This document shows positions 44,393 through 55,428 of a stretch of 64,000 bases of DNA, piece after piece. The stretch lies in contig LBTB01000004.1 of assembly GCA_000989305.1 (NCBI GenBank), positions 12,897-76,896 on the forward strand. Reading direction: 5' to 3'. The translations under genes and the position numbers were made by a program. Position 1 is the first letter of the stretch. Each line of letters begins with the position of its first letter. Source of the stretch: Candidatus Shapirobacteria bacterium GW2011_GWF2_37_20 (lineage in GTDB: Bacteria > Patescibacteriota > Microgenomatia > UBA12405). The notes beneath the pieces were generated by a model. It did not search any database, was not told where the DNA came from, and was given only the letters and a program-made list of their open reading frames with translations.

Positions 44393-44992
44393 TTATAATA
44401 TATTTTTATATTTTTTCATTTCTAAGAGATGCCTGTCGGCTTCCTGCAGTGTGGGCAAAAAACTTTGAGGTTTTGTGGGGTCTTCTTTGACGGTGGTGGC
44501 AAAACCAAAAGAGACATGAATGTTGTTTTTGGTAAGCCCTTCTTCCATGGCATCGTGGATACGGTAAACAAGGTGTTGAATACTGTCCATGTCGGTTATA
44601 TTGGGAAAGATGGCAACAAACTCATCTCCGCCGAAACGGGCGACGAGATCGGTGGCTTGGGTATTTTCATCTAGAATGCTGGCTAATTTTATTAAAACTT
44701 GATCTCCAAGGAAATGCCCTTTTTCTTTGCCGTGTATTTTGTCCAACTCATTGTTGAAATCTCCAAAATTGTCAACGTCAAACATAAGGGCGGTGATACC
44801 CTTGACGTTGCCGGATTGAGCAAGGTTTTCAAGTTGTTGATTAAGATAGCGGCGGTTATAAAGGCCGGTAAGTGAATCGATTAGGGCTTGATTTTTTAAG
44901 TCTTTGTTTTCTTGTTTTAGGCGTTTATTTTCATATTTTAAGCCGGCGGGGCTATTGGGACTGGGTCTGGCGGGGAGTTTATCGAAAAGCAT
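44393..44992 (-). CDS. GGDEF-domain diguanylate cyclase (short, coiled-coil N-terminus)
   Basis: RFGGDEFVAIF active-site motif. Preceded by DSLTGLYNRRY. Confidence 0.8.
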   Translation of the reverse strand: MLFDKLPARPSPNSPAGLKYENKRLKQENKDLKNQALIDSLTGLYNRRYLNQQLENLAQSGNVKGITALMFDVDNFGDFNNELDKIHGKEKGHFLGDQVLIKLASILDENTQATDLVARFGGDEFVAIFPNITDMDSIQHLVYRIHDAMEEGLTKNNIHVSFGFATTVKEDPTKPQSFLPTLQEADRHLLEMKKYKNIL

Positions 44993-44997
44993 TATAT

Positions 44998-45789
44998 TTA
45001 TTGATTAATCATTTTTAGTAACCTATCAATACCAAGGCCGATGCCTGATATGGTTTTTAGTTTAGCAGAATTGGTGGCAAAAGAGGTATCAATGGGGTGG
45101 AGTGGTAAAGAATTTTTAATCCGATATTCTTTTTCCCGATTAAAGGACTTTAGAATTGAATCTGGATCGGTGTTTTCAGTACAGCCATTAGCAATTTCAA
45201 TACCGTTAATATAAAGCTCAAAGCGTTGTCCCTTTTTTGCCAGAGGGCTGAGAAAAGCCGGATAGCCGGTAATAAAAACAGCTTTATCTTTAGGTAAATT
45301 AGGTTCGATTTTATTGAGAAAGTACTGATTGAAATCGGCTTCCTTGTCGGGTAGGTTTTGAGGGAGAACAAAGTTGGTGAACTCGATATCTAAATATTTT
45401 TTGATAAAATTTCGAGTGGAAAGCATTAAGTTTTGGTAATTTTTGTTGATTTCGTACCATTCCAACATTAAAAATTCCGGAGTATGGTTGGGACCTTCGT
45501 TTTCCAGATCGCGAAAACAATGGGAAATGGCAAAGCAGTTTTTTTGATTTTCAGATAGGAATTTTTTGAGGGCAAATTCCGGAGAGGTGGGGAGGTAATA
45601 GTTCACATTTTTATGAGTCCAGGTAGTTTTAAAGGAATAGAGATTTGCTTCGAGGGGGAGAGAGGGGTTGAGGTAAGGGATTTCAATCTCAGTAAAATCT
45701 AGGTTCCAGAGATATTGACGGATAGATTTTAGAAATTCAGATTGGGTCATAAGTTTTTTAACCCACAAAAATAATCTGGATCGGAACAA
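44998..45789 (-). CDS. Class II aminoacyl-tRNA-synthetase-like catalytic-core protein (EpmA/PoxA-like, no anticodon-binding domain)
   Basis: Motif 2 FRDLENEGPNHTPEFLMLEWY and motif 3 GIGLGIDRLLKM. Length 263 aa. Confidence 0.6.
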   Translation of the reverse strand: MFRSRLFLWVKKLMTQSEFLKSIRQYLWNLDFTEIEIPYLNPSLPLEANLYSFKTTWTHKNVNYYLPTSPEFALKKFLSENQKNCFAISHCFRDLENEGPNHTPEFLMLEWYEINKNYQNLMLSTRNFIKKYLDIEFTNFVLPQNLPDKEADFNQYFLNKIEPNLPKDKAVFITGYPAFLSPLAKKGQRFELYINGIEIANGCTENTDPDSILKSFNREKEYRIKNSLPLHPIDTSFATNSAKLKTISGIGLGIDRLLKMINQ

Positions 45790-46520
45790 AGAAGATTTTT
45801 TGAAGTGAGATCTAAAAAACGCTTGACAACTTTTTTGATTGGGTCGGAAATTGAAGCAATTGGCTTGACTGATTCACAACAGCCGTAAAATTTACCGTCT
45901 GATTGGAGGGAAAGCATGGAACAGCCAAAGTTTTTTGGTGGATAACATGGATAATTCTGACGAATATCTATAATTTGTTTTGAGGTTAGAGATCCAAGGC
46001 GGTCAGTAAGATAAGTTTTGGGAAGATTGTAAACCTGGAAAGAATCTTTATAAGGGTAAGAATCTTTGGTAATTAAGTAAAAAATTTCAACAGGAAAATT
46101 TAATTTTAAAGCGTGTTTTACAAATTTTTTAGATCTGGTAAAGTTGCCTGGTCCGCGATTAGCATCGTGGATATTTTGAGGTCCGTCAAAAGAGACAATC
46201 AATTGACAATTACGGGGATCCTTTATGTTTTTAAGTCTATCAATGGTGCCGTTGGTGATAATAGAGGTAAAAATACCCATTGAGTTTAGTTTGTTAATTA
46301 AAGAGGGAAAATTTTTGAGGGTAAAAACTTCACCGCCACAGAAGATTATAGATTTCAATTGACAGTTGCGAGTTGCGAGTTGTTGGTTGTATCTTCGAAC
46401 GAAGGAGAGAATCTGGGAATTGGAAAGGATATTTTTAGTTTTTTTGGTATAGCAATAGCGACAATTGAGATTACACAGTTCCAGTGGGGAGATATAGATG
46501 TTTTCGAGGGCGGAAATCAT
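45747..46520 (-). CDS. Radical SAM protein with C-terminal Cys-rich (SPASM/twitch-like) region
   Basis: CNLNCRYC at residues 16-23. C-terminal CGCCES and CSDPDYFCG. The 5' end overlaps the EpmA-like gene by 43 nt. Confidence 0.7.
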   Translation of the reverse strand: MISALENIYISPLELCNLNCRYCYTKKTKNILSNSQILSFVRRYNQQLATRNCQLKSIIFCGGEVFTLKNFPSLINKLNSMGIFTSIITNGTIDRLKNIKDPRNCQLIVSFDGPQNIHDANRGPGNFTRSKKFVKHALKLNFPVEIFYLITKDSYPYKDSFQVYNLPKTYLTDRLGSLTSKQIIDIRQNYPCYPPKNFGCSMLSLQSDGKFYGCCESVKPIASISDPIKKVVKRFLDLTSKNLLCSDPDYFCGLKNL

Positions 46521-46524
46521 GGCA

Positions 46525-46745
46525 GATTATAGCACTGTCTGATTATCGGTAGCTTTGGAGCGGATGGCGGGGGGTGATTGGTCTTCTTGGGAGATACTGT
46601 AGAGTTGCTCAGCAATGGTGGGTGAGGGGTGGCATGGACGACGAGGTTCAAAAGGGGGAATTAATCTGACGGGGGAAACGGTGTCAGCACAAAGGAGACA
46701 TTCCGTACTTCCGATTTGACACATAAATCAGTGTAGCATCAGAGA
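46525..46745 (+). ncRNA. GC-rich, G-run-rich island: candidate structured RNA of unknown family (strand uncertain). Alternative reading is a small Cys-containing minus-strand ORF.
   Basis: Local GC is far above the window background. G-runs GGCGGGGGG and GGTGGGTGAGGGGTGG. The overlapping track ORF 46527-46724(-) encodes a Pro/Arg/Ser-rich product, typical of spurious translation of RNA genes. Confidence 0.35.
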
Positions 46746-46746
46746 A

Positions 46747-46926
46747 TTATTTTAGTTTTGTTGACTCTTTGTGTTCGGTATTCTTTTTGCACCAATGACA
46801 ATATTTGTTGAATTTAAGTTTATCAGGGGTGTTGGTTTTGTTCTTTTCGGATAGATAATTTTGGGCACCACAAACGGAGCAACAAAGGGCGATTAAAATT
46901 CGAGGTGTTTTTTTAGATTTGGCCAT
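46747..46926 (-). CDS. rpmG: Ribosomal protein L33
   Basis: Hand translation gives MAKSKKTPRILIALCCSVCGAQNYLSEKNKTNTPDKLKFNKYCHWCKKNTEHKESTKLK, the L33 zinc-ribbon pattern. Length 59 aa, below the track length cutoff. Confidence 0.85.
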   Translation of the reverse strand: MAKSKKTPRILIALCCSVCGAQNYLSEKNKTNTPDKLKFNKYCHWCKKNTEHKESTKLK

Positions 46927-48621: not shown

Positions 48622-49353
48622 ATGTTGCAAATAAAAAAAATAAGCGTTTCGGTGGAAGGAAAGCCAATTTTGGCAGATATTGGTTTAGAGTTAAATGCGG
48701 GAGAAGTGATGGCTTTAATGGGTCCAAACGGAAGTGGAAAATCGAGTTTGGCCTATGCTTTGGCTGGACATCCAAAATATGCCGTAGATAAGGGAAAAAT
48801 GTTTTTTGATAAAAAAGAAATTACAGAATTGACTCCAAATGAAAGAGCAATGATGGGTCTATTTTTAGCAAATCAAGCGCCAGTGGCAATTCCGGGCCTT
48901 GGGATAAAAAGTTTTTTATGGCAGATCTACAAGAAGTTTGAAAATGAAAAAAGAATGGATTTGGTTAAGTTTAGAAATTGGTTAGATGATGAGGCTGAAA
49001 AATTACAGTTGAAAAATGGGTTATTGGAGAGAGGTCTGAATGATGGATTTTCTGGTGGAGAAAGAAAAAAAATGGAGGTTTTACAAATGTTGGTGTCAAA
49101 GCCAAAATATATAATATTGGACGAAATTGATTCTGGTCTTGACGTGGACGCCTTAAAAATAATTGCCCTGAGGGTTAAAAAAATGGTCAAAGAGGATAAG
49201 GTTGGGGTGTTGATAATTACTCACTACAGTCGGATTTTAAATTATTTAAAAGCAGATAAAGTAGTGATAATTGAAAAAGGAAAAGTGAAAGAAATGGGCG
49301 GAATGGAACTGGTAAAGAAAATTGAAGATAAAGGTTTTGAAGAAAAAAAATAA
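48622..49353 (+). CDS. sufC: Fe-S cluster assembly ATPase SufC
   Basis: [11 protein letters not shown] Walker A, ABC signature FSGGERKK, and the SufC C-terminus. Confidence 0.9.
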
Positions 49354-50780
49354 TGAGTCGTTTTGCCCCAATAAAAGAGGAAAGTAAAAAGGAAAAATGG
49401 GAAAAAAGCCCATATGAGTATGGTTTCTCTAGTCCGGAAAAGCACATGTTTAAGGCCAAGAGAGGTTTAAACGAAGAAATTGTAAGGATGATTTCGACAA
49501 TGAAATCTGAGGAAGAAAAAATGCGGAATTTTAGACTGGAGTCTTACAAAATTTTTTTGGAAAAGAAAATGCCAACTTGGGGGGCAGACCTATCAACAAT
49601 AGATTTCAACAATATTTTTTATTATGTGAAAGCGACGAAAAGTGAAGGTAAAAAATGGGGAGATGTACCCAAAGAAATAAAAGACACATATGATAAATTG
49701 GGAATTCCTCAGGCAGAAAAGGAGTATTTGGGAGGAGTAAAAGCACAATATGAATCGGAAGTAATTTACGGCTCTTTACTTAAAAAATTACGTGATAAGG
49801 GCATAATTTTTTGTGGAATGGACGAGGCTTTGGTTAAATACCCAGATCTAGTGTGGTCACATTTTGGCAAAATTGTACCAAAAGGGGACAATAAATTTGC
49901 GGCTTTAAACAGCGCGGTGTGGTCGGGAGGATCTTTTATTTACGTGCCAAAGGGAGTAAAAGTTGATTTACCGTTACAGGCATATTTCAGAATAAACACC
50001 CAAAACATGGGACAATTTGAAAGGACTTTAATTATAGTTGATGAAGGGGCTTTTGTTCATTATGTGGAAGGCTGTACAGCGCCAATTTATACGACTGATT
50101 CATTGCATTCAGCTGTGGTGGAAATTTGGGTGGCTAAAAATGCCAGGTGTCGTTATACGACAATTCAAAACTGGTCAACTAATGTTTACAATCTGGTGAC
50201 AAAGAGGGCGTGGGTAGAGGAAAAGGGGATCATGGAATGGGTAGATGGAAATTTAGGAAGTAAGATAACCATGAAATATCCAAGTGTGATTTTGGCGGGA
50301 AAGGGGGCTCATGGAGAAATTTTATCGGTGGCAGTGGCGGGGAAAGGTCAACATCAAGACGCTGGAGGAAAATGTATTCATTTAGCTGAAAACACAACAA
50401 GTCGGATTATTTCCAAATCGATTAGTTTAAATGGAGGTAGAAGTAGCTATCGGGGTATGATTCAAATGAATAAGGGGGCAAAAAATGCTAGATCTAAGGT
50501 AGTTTGTGATGCTTTAATTTTAGATAATGAATCGAGGTCGGACACATATCCTGTTAATAAAATTATGGAATCAGAAGTGACTTTGGAACACGAGGCCACA
50601 GTTAGCAAAATTGGGGAGGAACAATTGTTTTATTTAATGTCGCGGGGTTTTGAAGAACACGAAGCGGAGGCAATGGTGGTTAATGGTTTCATTGAACCAA
50701 TTGTTAAAGAGTTGCCAATGGAATATAGTGTGGAACTAAATCGACTAATTAGTTTACAAATGGAGGGAAGTGTTGGATGA
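49353..50780 (+). CDS. sufB: Fe-S cluster assembly protein SufB
   Basis: Length 475 aa and conserved SufB core motifs. Confidence 0.85.
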
Positions 50781-51205
50781 GATATTTTGATGTATTAGAT
50801 AGGATGGGACAATCTAAAGATATTAAGAAATTTTTGGTGGTTAAAAGTGGTGAAAGTATTGATATTGAAACTGTTATGCAATTTAAAGCTCCAAAAACAC
50901 GAGGCAATACTTTAATTAAAGCGGTAGTAATGCCGGGGGGAAAGTTAAATTTAAAAGGAGTCATAAAAATTGATAAAGGAGCAGAACTGGTCGAGGCATT
51001 TTTACGTCAGTCGGTGTTATTAATTGGAGAAAATTCGATGGCCACGGCAATTCCTGAATTAGAAATAGAATCAAATGAAGTTAGGGCCTCACATGCGGCG
51101 GCAATTGGGAGAGTTGACGAGGAACAATTGTTTTATTTAATGTCGCGTGGTTTAAGTCAGGATGAGGCAGTAAAATCAATTATAAAAGCCTTTTTAAATG
51201 AATAA
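50777..51205 (+). CDS. SufD-like protein (short, C-terminal beta-helix region only)
   Basis: Ends with [17 protein letters not shown], shared with the SufB/SufD C-terminus. Confidence 0.6.
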
Positions 51206-52427
51206 ATATAAAAAATATTTTCCAATTTTTAAAAATAGTCCGGATTTGGTCTATTTGGATAGTGCGGCGACAAGCTTAAAACCAAAAAGGGTGCTAGATA
51301 AAATGATGGAATATTACACTAAATATAGTGCCAATATTCATCGGGGTTTATATCCATTGTCGGAAAAGGCGAGTGAAGAATATGAGGGAGTGAGAGAGCT
51401 AGTAGCTAATTTTATTGGAGCAAAAAATAGAGAAGAAATTATTTTTACCAGTGGAACAACGGCAGGGATTAATTTGGTATCCAGGTCATGGGGGGAAGAA
51501 AACATATTTAAGGGTGATGAGATAGTGGCAACAGAAATGGAACATCATTCAAATTTAGTGCCTTGGCAGGAATTAGCCAAAAGAAGAAAGGCAAAATTAA
51601 GGCTGATAGAAGTGGGTGATGATTTTAAATTAAAAATAGATAATTTGGAAAAAATTATTGGAAGAAAAACAAAAATATTAGCTTTGACGGAGATGAGTAA
51701 TGTCTTAGGGACTATTAATCCAGTCAAAGAAATTATTAAAAAGGCAAAAGAAATAAACCCCAAAATAGTAATTTTAGTAGACGGGGCTCAAGCGGTGGCC
51801 CGTATGTCGGTAAAGGTAGCTGATTTGGGAGCTGACTTTTATGTTTTTTCAGGACACAAGATTTATGGACCAAGCGGAGTGGGGGTATTGTGGGTTAAAA
51901 AAGGAAGATTTTCCGAAATGAAAGCTTCTATTTTTGGAGGGGGGATGATAAGGGAAGTGTCTTTTGAGGAAAGTAGTTATCAAGGAGGTTTTGAGGCTTA
52001 TGAGGCAGGAACACCAGCGATTGGGGAAGTAATTGGGTTGGGAGAGGCAATAAAATTTGTGGAAAAAATAGGCTGGAAGGAGATGAGATGGCATGAAAGT
52101 GAACTATGTGAGTACGCATGGAGTAAATTGTCGGAGATACCTGAAGTAAAAATTATCGGACCAAAGAGAGAGAGGGGGGGAGTTATTTCCATAATTTTGT
52201 CAGGAAAAGGAATGCCGGCGTCACATGATTTGGGGGATATTTTGGGAAGGAAGTATAATGTTTGTCTGAGAACTGGATATCATTGTGCGATGCCTTTGCA
52301 TAAAAAATTTGGTTTAAATTCGGGAACAAGCCGAATTAGTTTGGGGATATATAATGACAAAGGAGATATTGATATTTTAGTCAAAGGTATCAAGGGAGCC
52401 ATAGAAATTTTTAACAAAAATGGATGA
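51198..52427 (+). CDS. sufS: Cysteine desulfurase SufS
   Basis: PLP-lysine motif FSGHKIYGPSGVG and active-site Cys region RTGYHCA. Confidence 0.9.
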   Translation: MNKYKKYFPIFKNSPDLVYLDSAATSLKPKRVLDKMMEYYTKYSANIHRGLYPLSEKASEEYEGVRELVANFIGAKNREEIIFTSGTTAGINLVSRSWGEENIFKGDEIVATEMEHHSNLVPWQELAKRRKAKLRLIEVGDDFKLKIDNLEKIIGRKTKILALTEMSNVLGTINPVKEIIKKAKEINPKIVILVDGAQAVARMSVKVADLGADFYVFSGHKIYGPSGVGVLWVKKGRFSEMKASIFGGGMIREVSFEESSYQGGFEAYEAGTPAIGEVIGLGEAIKFVEKIGWKEMRWHESELCEYAWSKLSEIPEVKIIGPKRERGGVISIILSGKGMPASHDLGDILGRKYNVCLRTGYHCAMPLHKKFGLNSGTSRISLGIYNDKGDIDILVKGIKGAIEIFNKNG

Positions 52428-53166: not shown

Positions 53167-54290
53167 ATGGTAAAAAAGAAAATCTTGGTGATGACAGATC
53201 ACATGCCCTGGGGTCATCGGTCAATCGCCAGAGCTATCTATGGTTTTTTAAAAACTAAAGAGAAAGAAGAAAATTTTGAAGTTTATTACGCTGAAGTGAA
53301 GTCCGAGATGGGAATTTCAAATGATATATATCAATTCAGTTATCGATATTTACCTTTGTCGAGCCGGATTGGAAGATGGATGTCTTATTTGCCTCAAATC
53401 AGAAAAGTAATCGAAGAGTTATCGTTTACTAATTTGTCGGCACCTAAAAAAGTGGTTCAAAAAATAAAGCCAGACTTGGTGATTTCAACCTATTGGTTTC
53501 ATTCCCATTCTTTGGCCGGGTGGAAGGACAGGGGAGATGTAAATTTCAAATTATGGACGGTGGTGGCAGATCCGTGGACGGTGTTGCCGGTGTCATATAA
53601 TTCAAAAATCGATATGCATCTGGTTTATGATCAGATGGGGGTTGATGTTGGGATGAAAGAATGTGGTATCCCAAAAAATAAAATATTAGAAACAGGCTGG
53701 TGGACAAGGCCGGAGATGTTTGGAAAGTTTGATAGAAAAGAAGCCAGAAAAAAACTAGGTTTTAGTGATGACAGACAGGTGGTATTTGTTGGGGGCGGGA
53801 GTTTGGGAACGAATTCTTTAACGAAACTTTTACCAGCTCTAATGTTAATTAAGGGTAAGGTTGGCTTTATTTTTAATACCGGGACGGATAAATTGGCCTA
53901 CAATCTAGTCGAGCAATATACAAGATTGTATAAAAAATTAAACAAGCAGGGAAATGTAATCATTAAAAACCTGGGTTGGATTGAGAACATGGGAGAAGTA
54001 TTAGCCGGGGTAGATATTGTTTTTGGAAAAGCAGGTCCAAATTTTTTGTTTGATGGGCAATTACCCATATTGGAGGGCAAGAAGACGGAAACATAGACTT
54101 GATTAAAAAGAAGGGTTTAGGTTGGGTTAAAGAAAAGGGAACAGAGGCGGCTGATTTTTTATTAGCTTATCTTGAGGACCCAAAAAGATATCAGGATAAA
54201 TTTAAGAAAAATATTGAGACTGAAGCAAGAAAAAACGAAAAGAGTATGGGGATAATACTTGGGGAAATAAAGAGAGAAATGAGAATTTGA
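53167..54290 (+). CDS. GT28/MGDG-synthase (UgtP)-like glycosyltransferase, copy A; two frames joined by a -1 junction near 54064-54069
   Basis: Frame 1 (53167-54096) ends ...FGKAGPNFLFDGQLPI-LEGKKTET*. The conserved continuation GGQEDGNIDLIKKKGLGWVKEK... is in the -1 frame (track ORF 54099-54290). GQE(E/D)GN is the expected next motif of this family. Confidence 0.7.
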
Positions 54291-54307
54291 GTATTATAGA
54301 ATAGGGT

Positions 54308-55428
54308 GTGACTAAAAAGAAAATCTTGGTAATGACAGATCATATGCCCTGGGGTCACCGGTCAATAGCTAGAGCGATTTATGGGTTTTTAAAAACCAAA
54401 GAGAAAGAAGAAAATTTTGAAGTTTATTACGCGGAAGTAAGAGCAAAATTAGGATTAATTCATGAGATGTATATGCTTAGTTATCGGTATTTACCAGTAT
54501 CCAATAAGTTATCCAGATGGATATCGTACTCGCCGGGTTTGAGAAAATTAATTGAAAAAATGTCTCAGGGGAATGTGGTGGCGCCAAGGAAAATAGTTGA
54601 AAAAATTAAACCCGATTTGGTGATTTCAGCCTATTGGTTTCATTCCCATTCTTTGGCCAGGTGGCGTGATAAAGAAAAACAGAAATTTAAATTATGGACG
54701 GCTGTTAGTGACCCGTGGACTATTTTACCGATAGCATATAACTCTAAAATTGATTTGCATTTGGTTTATGACCGGAAAGGGGTGTATTTAGGAATGAAAG
54801 AATGTGGTTTAAAAAGGAATCAGATTTTAATAACAGGCTGGTGGACAAGACAGGAGATGTTTGGAAAGTTTGATAGAAAAGAAGCCAGAAAAAAACTAGG
54901 TTTTAACGATGGTAGGCCGGTGGTATTTTTTGGCGGAGGAAGTATGGGAACTTATTCGTTGGTAAGGTTGTTGCCGGCCTTGATGTTAATTAAAGACAAG
55001 GTAGGTCTAGTATTTAATACTGGGAAAGATAAAAAATCATATGACTTGGTGGAGCGGTACGTAAAGTCATATAAACGATTAAATAAAAAAGGAAACTTAA
55101 TCATTAAAAACCTGGGTTGGATTGAGAACATGGGAGAAGTATTAGCCGGGGTAGATATTGTTTTTGGAAAAGCAGGTCCAAATTTTTTGTTTGATGGGCA
55201 ATTACCCATAATGGGGGACAGGAGGATGGTAATATCAGATTGATAAAGAAGAAGGGTTTGGGATGGGTGAAGGAAAAAAGGGGAGAAGCGGTGAAATTTT
55301 TGCGGGACTATTTAAAAAGACCCAAACGGTATCAGAAAAAGTTTGAAAAAAGTATTGAGAATGAGGCGAAAAGAAACGAGAAAAGTATGGAGATAATCTC
55401 AAAAAGGGTAAAAGAAGAATTGAAGTAA
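54308..55428 (+). CDS. GT28/MGDG-synthase (UgtP)-like glycosyltransferase, copy B; same -1 junction near 55205-55210
   Basis: Tandem paralogue of copy A. Frame 1 ends ...GQLPI-MGDRRMVISD*. The -1 frame continues GGQEDGNIRLIKKKGLGWVKEK... (track ORF 55240-55428). Confidence 0.7.

What the first reader, a model, noticed from the sequence alone, without database searches (positions are those of the whole stretch)
44393..46520. Compact minus-strand module: radical SAM/SPASM-like enzyme, EpmA/PoxA-like class II aaRS core, GGDEF cyclase
Three genes are tightly packed; the radical-SAM gene overlaps the next gene by 43 nt. The middle gene has class II aaRS motifs 2 and 3 but no anticodon-binding domain. 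That is the architecture of EpmA/PoxA-type amino-acid ligases that modify EF-P. In classical systems the partner of EpmA is a KamA-like radical-SAM aminomutase (EpmB). Here the radical-SAM protein is a short N-terminal-CxxxCxxC enzyme with SPASM/twitch-like cysteines, not a KamA-type fold. It may be a non-canonical amino-acid or peptide modification pathway. A GGDEF cyclase is also unexpected in a reduced genome.
Basis: partly seen in the sequence, partly recalled or inferred. Interest (0 to 1): 0.5.

Follow-up and report, generated by a model that had tools for sequence, protein, structure and literature searches.

The report
Radical-SAM plus EpmA-like ligase cassette
A tiny groundwater bacterium (Candidatus Shapirobacteria) carries a conserved gene pair, an iron-sulfur radical enzyme and a trimmed lysyl-tRNA-synthetase-like ligase, that probably decorates translation factor EF-P in an undescribed way; the neighbouring GGDEF cyclase is only a passenger.

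Summary
All three minus-strand genes exist as described.

- **Radical SAM enzyme**, 45747-46520.
- **EpmA-like class II ligase core** with no anticodon-binding domain, 44998-45750.
- **GGDEF cyclase**, 44393-44992.

The 43-nt overlap comes from using the longest ORF. The likely ligase start is the ATG at 45750, which gives a 4-nt ATGA overlap.

The radical SAM-ligase pair is conserved in 153 of 160 related loci across Microgenomates, while the flanking genes change. GGDEF follows the ligase in only 18 loci.

The link to EF-P rests on three observations.

- efp lies next to the pair in four loci.
- In two EF-P lineages, the slot beside efp holds either a bona fide EpmA or this pair.
- The EF-P proteins next to the pair have Lys at the loop tip.

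The linked ligases score below NCBI's EpmA cut-offs. In 130 of 131 they carry Gly where E. coli EpmA has the beta-lysine gate Ala298.

My reading is an undescribed variant of EF-P lysine acylation with a radical tailoring step. The chemistry, and which enzyme acts first, are not resolved. No paper describing it was found.

The parts
45747..46520 (-). Radical SAM enzyme, 257 aa, with a twitch/partial-SPASM C-terminal domain. Cluster motif is C16-x3-C20-x2-C23. It carries GGE, TNGT, SxDG and HDxNRG motifs. Auxiliary cysteines are C200, C214, C215, C245 and C252.
45747..45750 (-). ATGA overlap between the radical SAM stop codon and the ligase start codon. This suggests translational coupling.
   Evidence: Sequence read. 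In 153 relatives the ligase starts within 150 nt of the radical SAM stop in 143 cases and overlaps it in 32.
44998..45750 (-). EpmA-like ligase, 250 aa. It is a class II LysRS-type catalytic core without an anticodon-binding domain. It has Gly at the position of E. coli EpmA Ala298. About 45-75 residues are deleted between motifs 2 and 3.
   Evidence: Pfam tRNA-synt_2, E 2.1e-30. TIGR00462 scores 191.9 bits against a cut-off of 286.9. Best PDB hits are EpmA/GenX 3G1Z and 3A5Z. Alignment with E. coli EpmA and LysS is. The gate residue is Gly in 130 of 131 linked ligases.
44393..44992 (-). Stand-alone GGDEF diguanylate cyclase, 199 aa, with a short N-terminal coiled-coil-like stretch. The GGDEF motif is intact and there is no RxxD I-site (QATD instead). 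It is probably co-transcribed here but is not a conserved member of the cassette.
   Evidence: Pfam GGDEF 101.2 bits and TIGR00254 104.4 bits, above the 37.4 cut-off. Sequence read. It follows the ligase in 18 of 160 loci, at 26-49% identity.
46527..46724 (-). Small Cys-rich ORF of 65 aa (C-x6-C-x2-C here, x7 in L081 and L090; a fourth conserved Cys; then PTIAEQLY). It ends 6 nt before the radical SAM ATG. It is lineage-specific and of unknown role.
   Evidence: The ORF is listed. Homologues sit at the same position in L081 and L090, with differences mostly at synonymous sites, and a conserved 20-mer lies at its start. There is no Pfam or PADLOC hit.
46747..46926 (-). rpmG (ribosomal protein bL33), the upstream neighbour in the close clade. 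Context only, not part of the cassette.
   Evidence: Pfam Ribosomal_L33, E 9e-17. It lies upstream of the radical SAM gene in about 136 of 160 loci but is absent from the distant clade.

Best explanation
The radical SAM gene and the ligase gene form one functional cassette. It is a variant pathway for modifying the conserved lysine at the tip of the EF-P beta3-beta4 loop.

**Proposed steps**
1. The ligase is a LysRS catalytic core without an anticodon-binding domain. It uses ATP to adenylate a lysine-like amino acid. With Gly at the Ala298 gate, this is more probably an alpha-amino acid such as L-lysine than (R)-beta-lysine.
2. [quoted passage not shown]
3. The twitch-type radical SAM enzyme cleaves SAM reductively, abstracts a hydrogen atom, and carries out an oxygen-independent tailoring step.

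I think it slightly more likely (about 55:45) that the tailoring acts on the lysyl-EF-P adduct, which is the place EpmC holds in E. coli. The alternative is that it acts on the free amino acid before ligation, which is the place EpmB holds.

**What is shown and what is inferred**
- Shown: the gene anatomy, the catalytic motifs, the fold class, the conserved pairing and the linkage to efp.
- Inferred: the substrate, the target lysine, the order of steps and the radical chemistry.

GGDEF is a lineage-specific operon passenger.
For: **The pair is a unit**
- 153 of 160 loci that carry the radical SAM gene also carry the ligase. Five of the seven exceptions are cut by a contig end. This holds down to 36% radical SAM identity, across Shapiro-, Woese-, Roizman-, Gottesman- and Cerribacteria.
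- In the distant clade the flanking genes differ from locus to locus, yet the pair stays together.
- The stop and start codons overlap or lie within 150 nt in 143 of 153 loci.

**The ligase looks active**
- Motif 2 (FRDLENEGPNHTPEFLMLEWY) and motif 3 (GIGLGIDRL) are intact.
- The lysine-binding Glu, Glu, Tyr, Asn and Glu equivalents are kept.
- The best PDB relatives are EpmA/GenX.

**Link to EF-P**
- efp lies immediately beside the pair in L065 and L172 (downstream) and in L078 and L080 (divergent upstream).
- Within one EF-P lineage (74-89% identical), the slot just upstream of efp holds either the radical SAM gene plus a Gly-gate ligase (L065, L172) or a bona fide EpmA alone (L161, L173). 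L065 and L161 share the same genes downstream of efp.
- The same alternation occurs in a second EF-P lineage: L078 against L163, L165 and L169.
- All these EF-Ps have the loop N/SPGKGSAF, with Lys at the tip.

**A distinct ligase subfamily**
- Gly sits at the Ala298 gate in 130 of 131 linked ligases. The efp-adjacent EpmAs without a radical SAM neighbour have Ala in all seven inspected.
- A298G switches E. coli EpmA from (R)-beta- to (S)-alpha-lysine (bioRxiv 10.64898/2026.07.07.736966).
- The linked ligases score below the EpmA cut-offs, while the unlinked ones pass.

**The radical SAM enzyme looks competent**
- The CxxxCxxC and SAM-binding motifs are invariant, and there are five conserved auxiliary cysteines.
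- The model is confident and has a twitch/SPASM fold.
Against: - No efp lies in this 64-kb window. I could not retrieve the EF-P of this genome, so the target lysine is shown only in relatives.
- efp adjacency is seen in 4 loci out of about 165. In the close clade the neighbours are rpmG and hpf instead.
- KamA-family aminomutase genes coexist with the pair. One lies next to it in L072, and one lies on another contig of the Cerribacteria MAG that also holds L080. Beta-lysine may therefore still be the substrate, and the Gly-gate argument, which is transferred from E. coli EpmA, may not apply.
- L062 has an Ala gate despite being linked to the radical SAM gene.
- The pocket position equivalent to LysRS Phe426 varies (Cys 69, Tyr 44, Asn 21) and gives no clear substrate signal.
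- The window's ligase is 75 residues shorter than E. coli EpmA (250 against 325), so binding to EF-P is not assured.
- Nothing here identifies the radical chemistry.
Confidence: 0.55

Rival explanations
1. The cassette still targets EF-P, but the radical SAM enzyme acts first. It converts a free amino acid (lysine, or beta-lysine made by a KamA-family enzyme) into a non-standard amino acid. The co-adapted ligase then attaches that product. Functionally the radical SAM enzyme would replace or extend EpmB rather than EpmC.
For: - The ligase pocket differs from both LysRS and EpmA precisely in the radical-SAM-linked subfamily: a Gly gate, no Phe at the Phe426 position, and one extra residue in the motif 2 loop.
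- The radical SAM enzyme is small (257 aa) and has no peptide-recognition domain, like the small-molecule twitch enzymes BtrN, BlsE and MoaA among its structural neighbours.
- In the canonical pathway the radical SAM step precedes ligation.
- Ligase and radical SAM gene were exchanged together against EpmA beside efp.
Against: - The pocket residue at the Phe426 position is not conserved within the family (Cys, Tyr or Asn), and one member has an Ala gate. That is hard to reconcile with one special substrate.
- Many of the nearest structures modify proteins or peptides: SkfB, anSME, SuiB, EpeE.
Confidence: 0.25
2. The pair modifies a different acceptor, not EF-P. Candidates are a ribosomal protein such as bL33, HPF or another translation component, or a small molecule or lipid.
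For: - In the close clade the conserved neighbours are hpf, a GDSL hydrolase and rpmG. In many loci rpmG abuts the radical SAM gene.
- No efp lies in the window.
- The ligase fails the curated EpmA cut-offs.
Against: - The rpmG and hpf linkage is lost in the distant clade, while the pair itself persists.
- efp adjacency arose in at least two different arrangements. In situ alternation with bona fide EpmA occurs in two EF-P lineages.
Confidence: 0.12
3. This is a RiPP-like pathway. The small Cys-rich ORF would be a precursor peptide matured by the SPASM-type radical SAM enzyme and aminoacylated by the ligase.
For: - A conserved 65-aa Cys-rich ORF lies directly upstream of the radical SAM gene in the window, L081 and L090.
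- The nearest structures and the best, sub-threshold, NCBIfam hits are RiPP maturases.
Against: - The small ORF is absent from the other roughly 157 loci.
- No RRE domain, protease or exporter is present.
- The cassette sits among translation genes and beside efp in relatives.
Confidence: 0.04
4. The two genes are only syntenic neighbours with unrelated functions. The ligase would do ordinary EpmA-type beta-lysylation using a KamA-family enzyme encoded elsewhere, and the radical SAM enzyme would serve some unrelated housekeeping role.
For: - KamA-family genes exist in Microgenomates and in at least one genome that carries the pair.
- The radical SAM enzyme has no assigned family.
Against: - The pair persists in 153 of 160 loci, through complete turnover of flanking genes in the distant clade, down to 36% identity.
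- The two genes frequently overlap.
- Radical SAM presence covaries with the ligase gate residue, 130:1 against 0:7.
- The bona fide EpmAs beside efp have no radical SAM gene within 4-5 kb where the contig extends that far.
Confidence: 0.04

Closest known systems
EpmA/EpmB/EpmC (R)-beta-lysylation of EF-P Lys34 (E. coli, Salmonella)
   Same: - The ligase is a LysRS-derived class II catalytic core without an anticodon-binding domain.
- EpmA is its best family and its best solved-structure match.
- A radical SAM enzyme is its genetic partner.
- Relatives show linkage to a Lys-type efp.
   Different: - The ligase scores below both curated EpmA cut-offs, has Gly instead of Ala298, lacks Phe at the pocket position and is 75 residues shorter than E. 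coli EpmA.
- The partner is a twitch/SPASM enzyme, not a PLP-dependent KamA-type aminomutase.
- No EpmC was seen near the cassette.
Bona fide EpmA of other Patescibacteria, encoded directly upstream of efp
   Same: Same phylum, a nearly identical EF-P loop, and the same genomic slot beside efp in related lineages.
   Different: These proteins pass TIGR00462 and NF006828, have Ala at the gate, are 330-357 aa long and have no adjacent radical SAM gene. They are only 32-37% identical to the linked ligases.
Class II lysyl-tRNA synthetase (LysS/LysU)
   Same: Motifs 2 and 3, the lysine-binding acidic residues, and Gly at the gate position.
   Different: The window's protein has no anticodon-binding domain, groups with EpmA-like proteins rather than LysRS in HMM scores and in a crude NJ tree that was rooted on E. 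coli LysS, and lacks Phe426.
Twitch/SPASM radical SAM enzymes (SkfB, anSME, SuiB, BlsE, MoaA, BtrN, EpeE)
   Same: - An N-terminal CxxxCxxC motif.
- GGE, TNG, SxDG and HDxxRG motifs.
- A C-terminal C-x8-G-x4-C motif plus later cysteines.
   Different: - Sequence identity is only 12-20%, and no NCBIfam model comes near its cut-off.
- There are five conserved auxiliary cysteines rather than the seven of a full SPASM domain.
- Cys61 before GGE is invariant.
- The partner is an aaRS-like ligase, which none of the papers found in my searches describes for these enzymes.

Membership tests
EpmA (EF-P lysine aminoacylase; TIGR00462 / NF006828) | Class II LysRS-type catalytic core with motifs 2 and 3 and no anticodon-binding domain | tested here: met
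   Pfam finds tRNA-synt_2 only, over residues 11-261. Motifs are read in the alignments.
EpmA (EF-P lysine aminoacylase; TIGR00462 / NF006828) | Score at or above NCBI's curated equivalog cut-offs | tested here: not met
   The window's protein scores 191.9 against 286.9 and 179.2 against 264. Longer linked relatives, L080 and L065, also fail (247.5 and 260.5). E. coli EpmA and the efp-adjacent Patescibacteria ligases pass.
EpmA (EF-P lysine aminoacylase; TIGR00462 / NF006828) | Ala at the backbone-selectivity gate (E. coli Ala298) that confers (R)-beta-lysine preference | tested here: not met
   The window has Gly (GIGLGIDRL against GVALGVDRL). Gly occurs in 130 of 131 linked ligases.
EpmA (EF-P lysine aminoacylase; TIGR00462 / NF006828) | Partner lysine 2,3-aminomutase EpmB (KamA family) | tested here: inconclusive
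   There is none in the window or in 159 of the 160 radical-SAM-selected loci. One lies next to the pair in L072, and one lies elsewhere in the Cerribacteria MAG. The whole genome could not be searched.
EpmA (EF-P lysine aminoacylase; TIGR00462 / NF006828) | A cognate EF-P with Lys at the loop tip, and genetic linkage to efp | tested here: inconclusive
   Met in relatives L065, L172, L078 and L080. efp is not in this window and was not retrieved for this genome.
EpmA (EF-P lysine aminoacylase; TIGR00462 / NF006828) | Acylation of the EF-P lysine | not testable with these tools
   This needs biochemistry or mass spectrometry.
KamA/EpmB lysine 2,3-aminomutase family (for the radical SAM protein) | Sequence and fold of the KamA family | tested here: not met
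   - Not among the 25 NCBIfam matches shown, out of 68.
- BLASTP against E. coli EpmB matches only 61 residues around CxxxCxxC, E 7e-4.
Twitch/SPASM radical SAM subfamily | CxxxCxxC cluster motif and SAM-binding motifs | tested here: met
   C16, C20, C23, GGE 62-64, TNGT 89-92 and SxDG 110-113 are invariant in 34 sequences.
Twitch/SPASM radical SAM subfamily | C-terminal auxiliary-cluster cysteine motif (C-x9-15-G-x4-C, then further Cys); a full SPASM domain has seven Cys | tested here: inconclusive
   - C200-x8-G209-x4-C214, then C215, C245 and C252, are invariant.
- The CxxC of distant members is reduced to one Cys in this clade.
- This fits a twitch-like domain with a single auxiliary cluster, but the number of clusters cannot be determined here.
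Twitch/SPASM radical SAM subfamily | Fold similarity to solved members | tested here: met
GGDEF diguanylate cyclase | GGDEF domain above cut-off with an intact GG[DE]EF motif; an RxxD I-site is optional | tested here: met
   TIGR00254 scores 104.4 against 37.4. The motif RFGGDEF is present. The I-site position reads QATD, so the I-site is absent.
RiPP biosynthetic cluster | A precursor peptide conserved alongside the maturase, plus recognition, processing or export functions | tested here: not met
   The small ORF occurs in only 3 loci. No RRE, protease or transporter is present in the cassette.

The most novel reading that the evidence does not exclude
Microgenomates would use a sixth, undescribed EF-P maturation chemistry. 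A Gly-gate EpmA-like ligase attaches an alpha-lysine-like residue to the EF-P loop lysine. A dedicated twitch-type radical SAM enzyme then remodels that adduct without oxygen, for example by epimerisation, amine migration, dehydrogenation or cross-linking. This would be an anaerobic counterpart of hydroxy-beta-lysyl-lysine or hypusine.
Probability: 0.35. Interest if true: 0.8.

Novelty: new variant of a known kind. Interest (0 to 1): 0.62.

Why it matters
[quoted passage not shown] Five EF-P types are recognised, and no EF-P modification pathway has been described for the candidate phyla radiation in the papers I could search.

This cassette is a concrete, testable candidate. It consists of two small genes plus efp, which can be co-expressed in E. 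coli and read out by mass spectrometry.

If confirmed, it would add three things.
- A new radical SAM reaction on a translation factor.
- A natural example of the Ala298-to-Gly switch that engineers use to retune EpmA.
- An insight into how ultra-small, anaerobic, host-dependent bacteria keep polyproline translation going.

It would also define two uncurated protein families: the linked radical SAM enzyme and the Gly-gate ligase.

Tried and rejected
- **efp in the window.** tblastn with E. coli, B. subtilis and three CPR EF-Ps found nothing.
- **EF-P of this genome or of Shapirobacteria.** A homologue search seeded with the L065 EF-P listed only the 120 closest proteins, none attributable to Shapirobacteria.
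- **Metagenome scan for more distant loci.** It returned only close relatives (54-78% identity), so it added nothing on efp linkage, though it did confirm the pairing.
- **KamA-family as a conserved third member.** Rejected. In four relatives the KamA-like gene sits in unrelated contexts.
- **Anti-phage defence (prokaryotic viperin).** Only sub-threshold, core-only matches of about 50 bits.
- **Promoter and terminator scan.** No more sites than in shuffled sequence.
- **Rfam scan.** Only tRNAs.
- **Structure prediction with the diverse alignment A2.** A3, which contains close homologues only, was used instead.
- **Literature.** Six searches and the papers opened from them found no description of a SPASM or twitch radical SAM enzyme linked to EpmA or EF-P, nor of EF-P modification in Patescibacteria.
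Full report
**Source and observation**

The radical SAM protein is 100% identical to a hypothetical protein of Candidatus Shapirobacteria bacterium GW2011_GWE1_38_10, a member of Microgenomates in the candidate phyla radiation. Three co-directional minus-strand ORFs lie at the reported coordinates.

- ORF 45747..46520 matches Pfam Radical_SAM (E 9.7e-16). It reaches no NCBIfam family cut-off. The best matches are only core-domain hits to SPASM-type maturases and viperins.
- The middle ORF matches tRNA-synt_2 (E 2.1e-30) with no anticodon-binding domain. Its best NCBIfam family is EpmA/GenX, at 191.9 bits against a cut-off of 286.9.
- ORF 44393..44992 is a GGDEF domain protein scoring above its cut-off.

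The 43-nt overlap follows from taking the longest ORF, which starts at TTG 45789. The sequence shows an ATG at 45750 that shares ATGA with the radical SAM stop codon. Homologues align from that Met. The GGDEF start lies 5 nt after the ligase stop. A conserved 65-aa ORF ends 6 nt before the radical SAM start. In this genome, then, four genes are packed behind rpmG.

**The radical SAM enzyme**

An alignment of 34 family members (40-76% identical to the window's protein) has these invariant features.

- The cluster motif C16-x3-C20-x2-C23.
- Cys61 followed by GGE.
- The motifs TNGT, SxDG and HDxNRG.
- The C-terminal cysteines C200, C214, C215, C245 and C252. C200-x8-G209-x4-C214 matches the first SPASM/twitch element.

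**Conserved linkage**

A scan of species-representative genomes returned 80 loci with a relative of the radical SAM enzyme, at 36-79% identity. They come from Shapiro-, Woese-, Roizman- and Cerribacteria and from unnamed Patescibacteria.

- In the genome scan, 77 of the 80 loci carry the ligase gene, almost always immediately downstream on the same strand.
- In a metagenome scan, 76 of 80 loci carry it, including all 65 with enough sequence downstream.
- Of the 7 loci without it, 5 are cut by a contig end.
- In the distant clade every flanking gene differs from locus to locus, yet the pair stays together.
- The ligase start lies within 150 nt of the radical SAM stop in 143 of 153 loci and overlaps it in 32.

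GGDEF follows the ligase in only 18 loci, at 26-49% identity. rpmG and hpf are upstream neighbours in the close clade only. The conserved unit is the two-gene cassette. GGDEF is a passenger.

**Link to EF-P**

efp is not in the window. It is the immediate neighbour of the pair in L065 and L172 (downstream) and in L078 and L080 (divergent upstream).

I then worked outward from efp. Other Patescibacteria carry a 330-357-aa tRNA-synt_2 gene close upstream of efp (directly adjacent in L161, L163 and L173). No radical SAM gene lies within 4-5 kb in L161, L163, L165 and L169; L173 is a 3.2-kb contig. The two of these scanned, L161 and L163, pass the curated EpmA cut-offs, at 316-328 bits against 286.9.

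Within one EF-P lineage (74-89% identical EF-P), the slot before efp holds one of two things:

- the radical SAM gene plus the linked ligase (L065, L172), or
- a bona fide EpmA alone (L161, L173).

L065 and L161 share the same methyltransferase, PAP2 and Lon genes downstream of efp. The two ligase types are only 32-37% identical to each other. A second EF-P lineage shows the same alternation: L078 against L163, L165 and L169, with 69-73% identical EF-P. All these EF-Ps have the loop N/SPGKGSAF with the tip lysine. This in situ alternation is my strongest argument that the cassette serves EF-P.

**A distinct ligase subfamily**

- The linked ligases score below both EpmA cut-offs, even the full-length ones (L080 247.5 bits, L065 260.5 bits).
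- In an alignment with E. coli EpmA and LysS, they keep motif 2, motif 3 and the equivalents of the lysine-binding Glu240, Glu278, Tyr280, Asn424 and Glu428 (the residue roles are from my own knowledge of LysU).
- They have Gly where E. coli EpmA has Ala298. This holds in 130 of 131 linked ligases, with L062 as the one exception. The efp-adjacent EpmAs have Ala in all seven inspected.
- Ala298 is the backbone-selectivity gate. The A298G change switches EpmA from (R)-beta-lysine to (S)-alpha-lysine (bioRxiv 10.64898/2026.07.07.736966).
- The position of LysRS Phe426 is never Phe in the linked family. It is Cys in 69, Tyr in 44 and Asn in 21.
- The Shapirobacteria branch has also lost about 45-75 residues between motifs 2 and 3.
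- In a crude NJ tree rooted on E. coli LysS, the linked ligases form one clade, sister to the Patescibacteria EpmAs.

**A complication: KamA-family genes**

A divergent KamA-family radical SAM gene lies next to the pair in L072. The family is widespread in Microgenomates, in unrelated contexts. One member is encoded in the same Cerribacteria MAG as L080. It scores below all NCBIfam cut-offs, including EpmB.

Beta-lysine may therefore be available in some genomes that carry the pair. The twitch enzyme need not replace EpmB.

**Proposed mechanism**

The ligase adenylates a lysine-like amino acid and transfers it to the EF-P loop lysine. The twitch radical SAM enzyme then performs an oxygen-independent hydrogen-abstraction step.

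I favour tailoring of the adduct after ligation, at about 55:45 given an EF-P target. Three observations lean that way.

- The ligase pocket is variable.
- One Ala-gate member exists.
- KamA coexists with the pair.

All three fit a radical SAM enzyme acting on a common downstream adduct better than a ligase tuned to one special precursor.

Two points lean the other way. The radical SAM enzyme is small and lacks a peptide-recognition domain. And the ligase type covaries with its presence. These keep the pre-ligation model alive.

The reaction type cannot be derived from these data. The invariant Cys61 next to the SAM-binding GGE motif could act as a hydrogen-atom donor, as in the epimerase EpeE. 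That is speculation.

**Novelty**

I found no NCBIfam model, no PADLOC model and no paper that describes this pairing or any EF-P modification in Patescibacteria. The papers checked include a January 2026 review of EF-P modifications and a 2024 survey that lists five EF-P types. I file it as a new variant of a known kind: EpmA-type EF-P acylation with a new class of radical SAM partner and a ligase subfamily outside curated EpmA.

**Limits**

- The target and the chemistry are inferred.
- The EF-P of this genome was not seen.
- efp adjacency rests on four loci plus the alternation argument.
- The gate-residue argument is transferred from E. coli EpmA.

Noticed in passing
window 46527-46724 (-); L081 5803-5967; L090 5849-6037: A 65-aa Cys-rich ORF with four conserved Cys and a PTIAEQLY motif sits directly before the radical SAM gene. 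It occurs only in this genome and two close relatives. Differences lie mostly at synonymous sites, so it looks like a real gene. A conserved 20-mer (TGCTACACTGATTTATGTGT) spans its start. In the window and in L081 it is in frame with the radical SAM gene, separated by TAA plus two codons. In L090 it overlaps the radical SAM start in another frame, next to an A5 run. It could be a partner, a redox protein, or a detached N-terminal domain.
   Followed up: partly
window 1-64000; loci L002-L064: The G/C strand disparity is extreme. GC skew is +0.35 over the whole window. Third-codon-position skew is about +0.5 in plus-strand genes and -0.5 to -0.7 in minus-strand genes read in coding orientation. 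Close relatives share it, but the distant clade (L065-L080) does not. The same phenomenon has been described for Microgenomates order UBA1400 (PMC7143001).
   Followed up: yes
window 48622-52427 (+): A SUF iron-sulfur assembly operon lies 2 kb from the radical SAM gene on the opposite strand. It comprises a sufC-like ABC ATPase, sufB, a truncated 142-aa SufBD-core protein and a sufS-like cysteine desulfurase. A relative (L171) has NifU and NifS genes near the cassette instead.
   Followed up: partly
L161, L163, L165, L169, L173: In other Patescibacteria an EpmA-type ligase with an Ala gate lies close upstream of efp; the two scanned, L161 and L163, pass the TIGR00462 cut-off. It often follows SurA_N-like and DUF5652 genes. 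Sometimes a YggS-like PLP protein (L165) or a GNAT acetyltransferase (L169) lies between it and efp. No EpmB lies within 4-5 kb. How these organisms obtain beta-lysine is open.
   Followed up: partly
L072 8010-9191 (-); L176-L180: A divergent KamA-family radical SAM protein, below all NCBIfam cut-offs including EpmB and AblA, is widespread in Microgenomates in variable contexts. It lies next to the cassette only in L072. It coexists with the cassette in the Cerribacteria MAG GCA_003176165.1.
   Followed up: partly
L062 6956-7798: This is the only radical-SAM-linked ligase of 131 with Ala (GIAIGIER) rather than Gly at the EpmA Ala298 gate. It also has Glu-Arg in place of the Asp-Arg of motif 3.
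   Followed up: no
L005, L009, L019, L031 (and L100): In a few relatives, one or two genes are inserted between the radical SAM gene and the ligase gene. These are the unannotated ORF families f33 and f52, about 410-490 aa, and f33 is on the opposite strand. They may be mobile elements.
   Followed up: no
window 50777-51205 (+) and 53167-55243 (+): The SufD-like gene is only 142 aa and covers just the C-terminal half of the SUFBD core. Two adjacent paralogous MGDG-synthase-like glycosyltransferase genes (309 and 311 aa) lie downstream.
   Followed up: no
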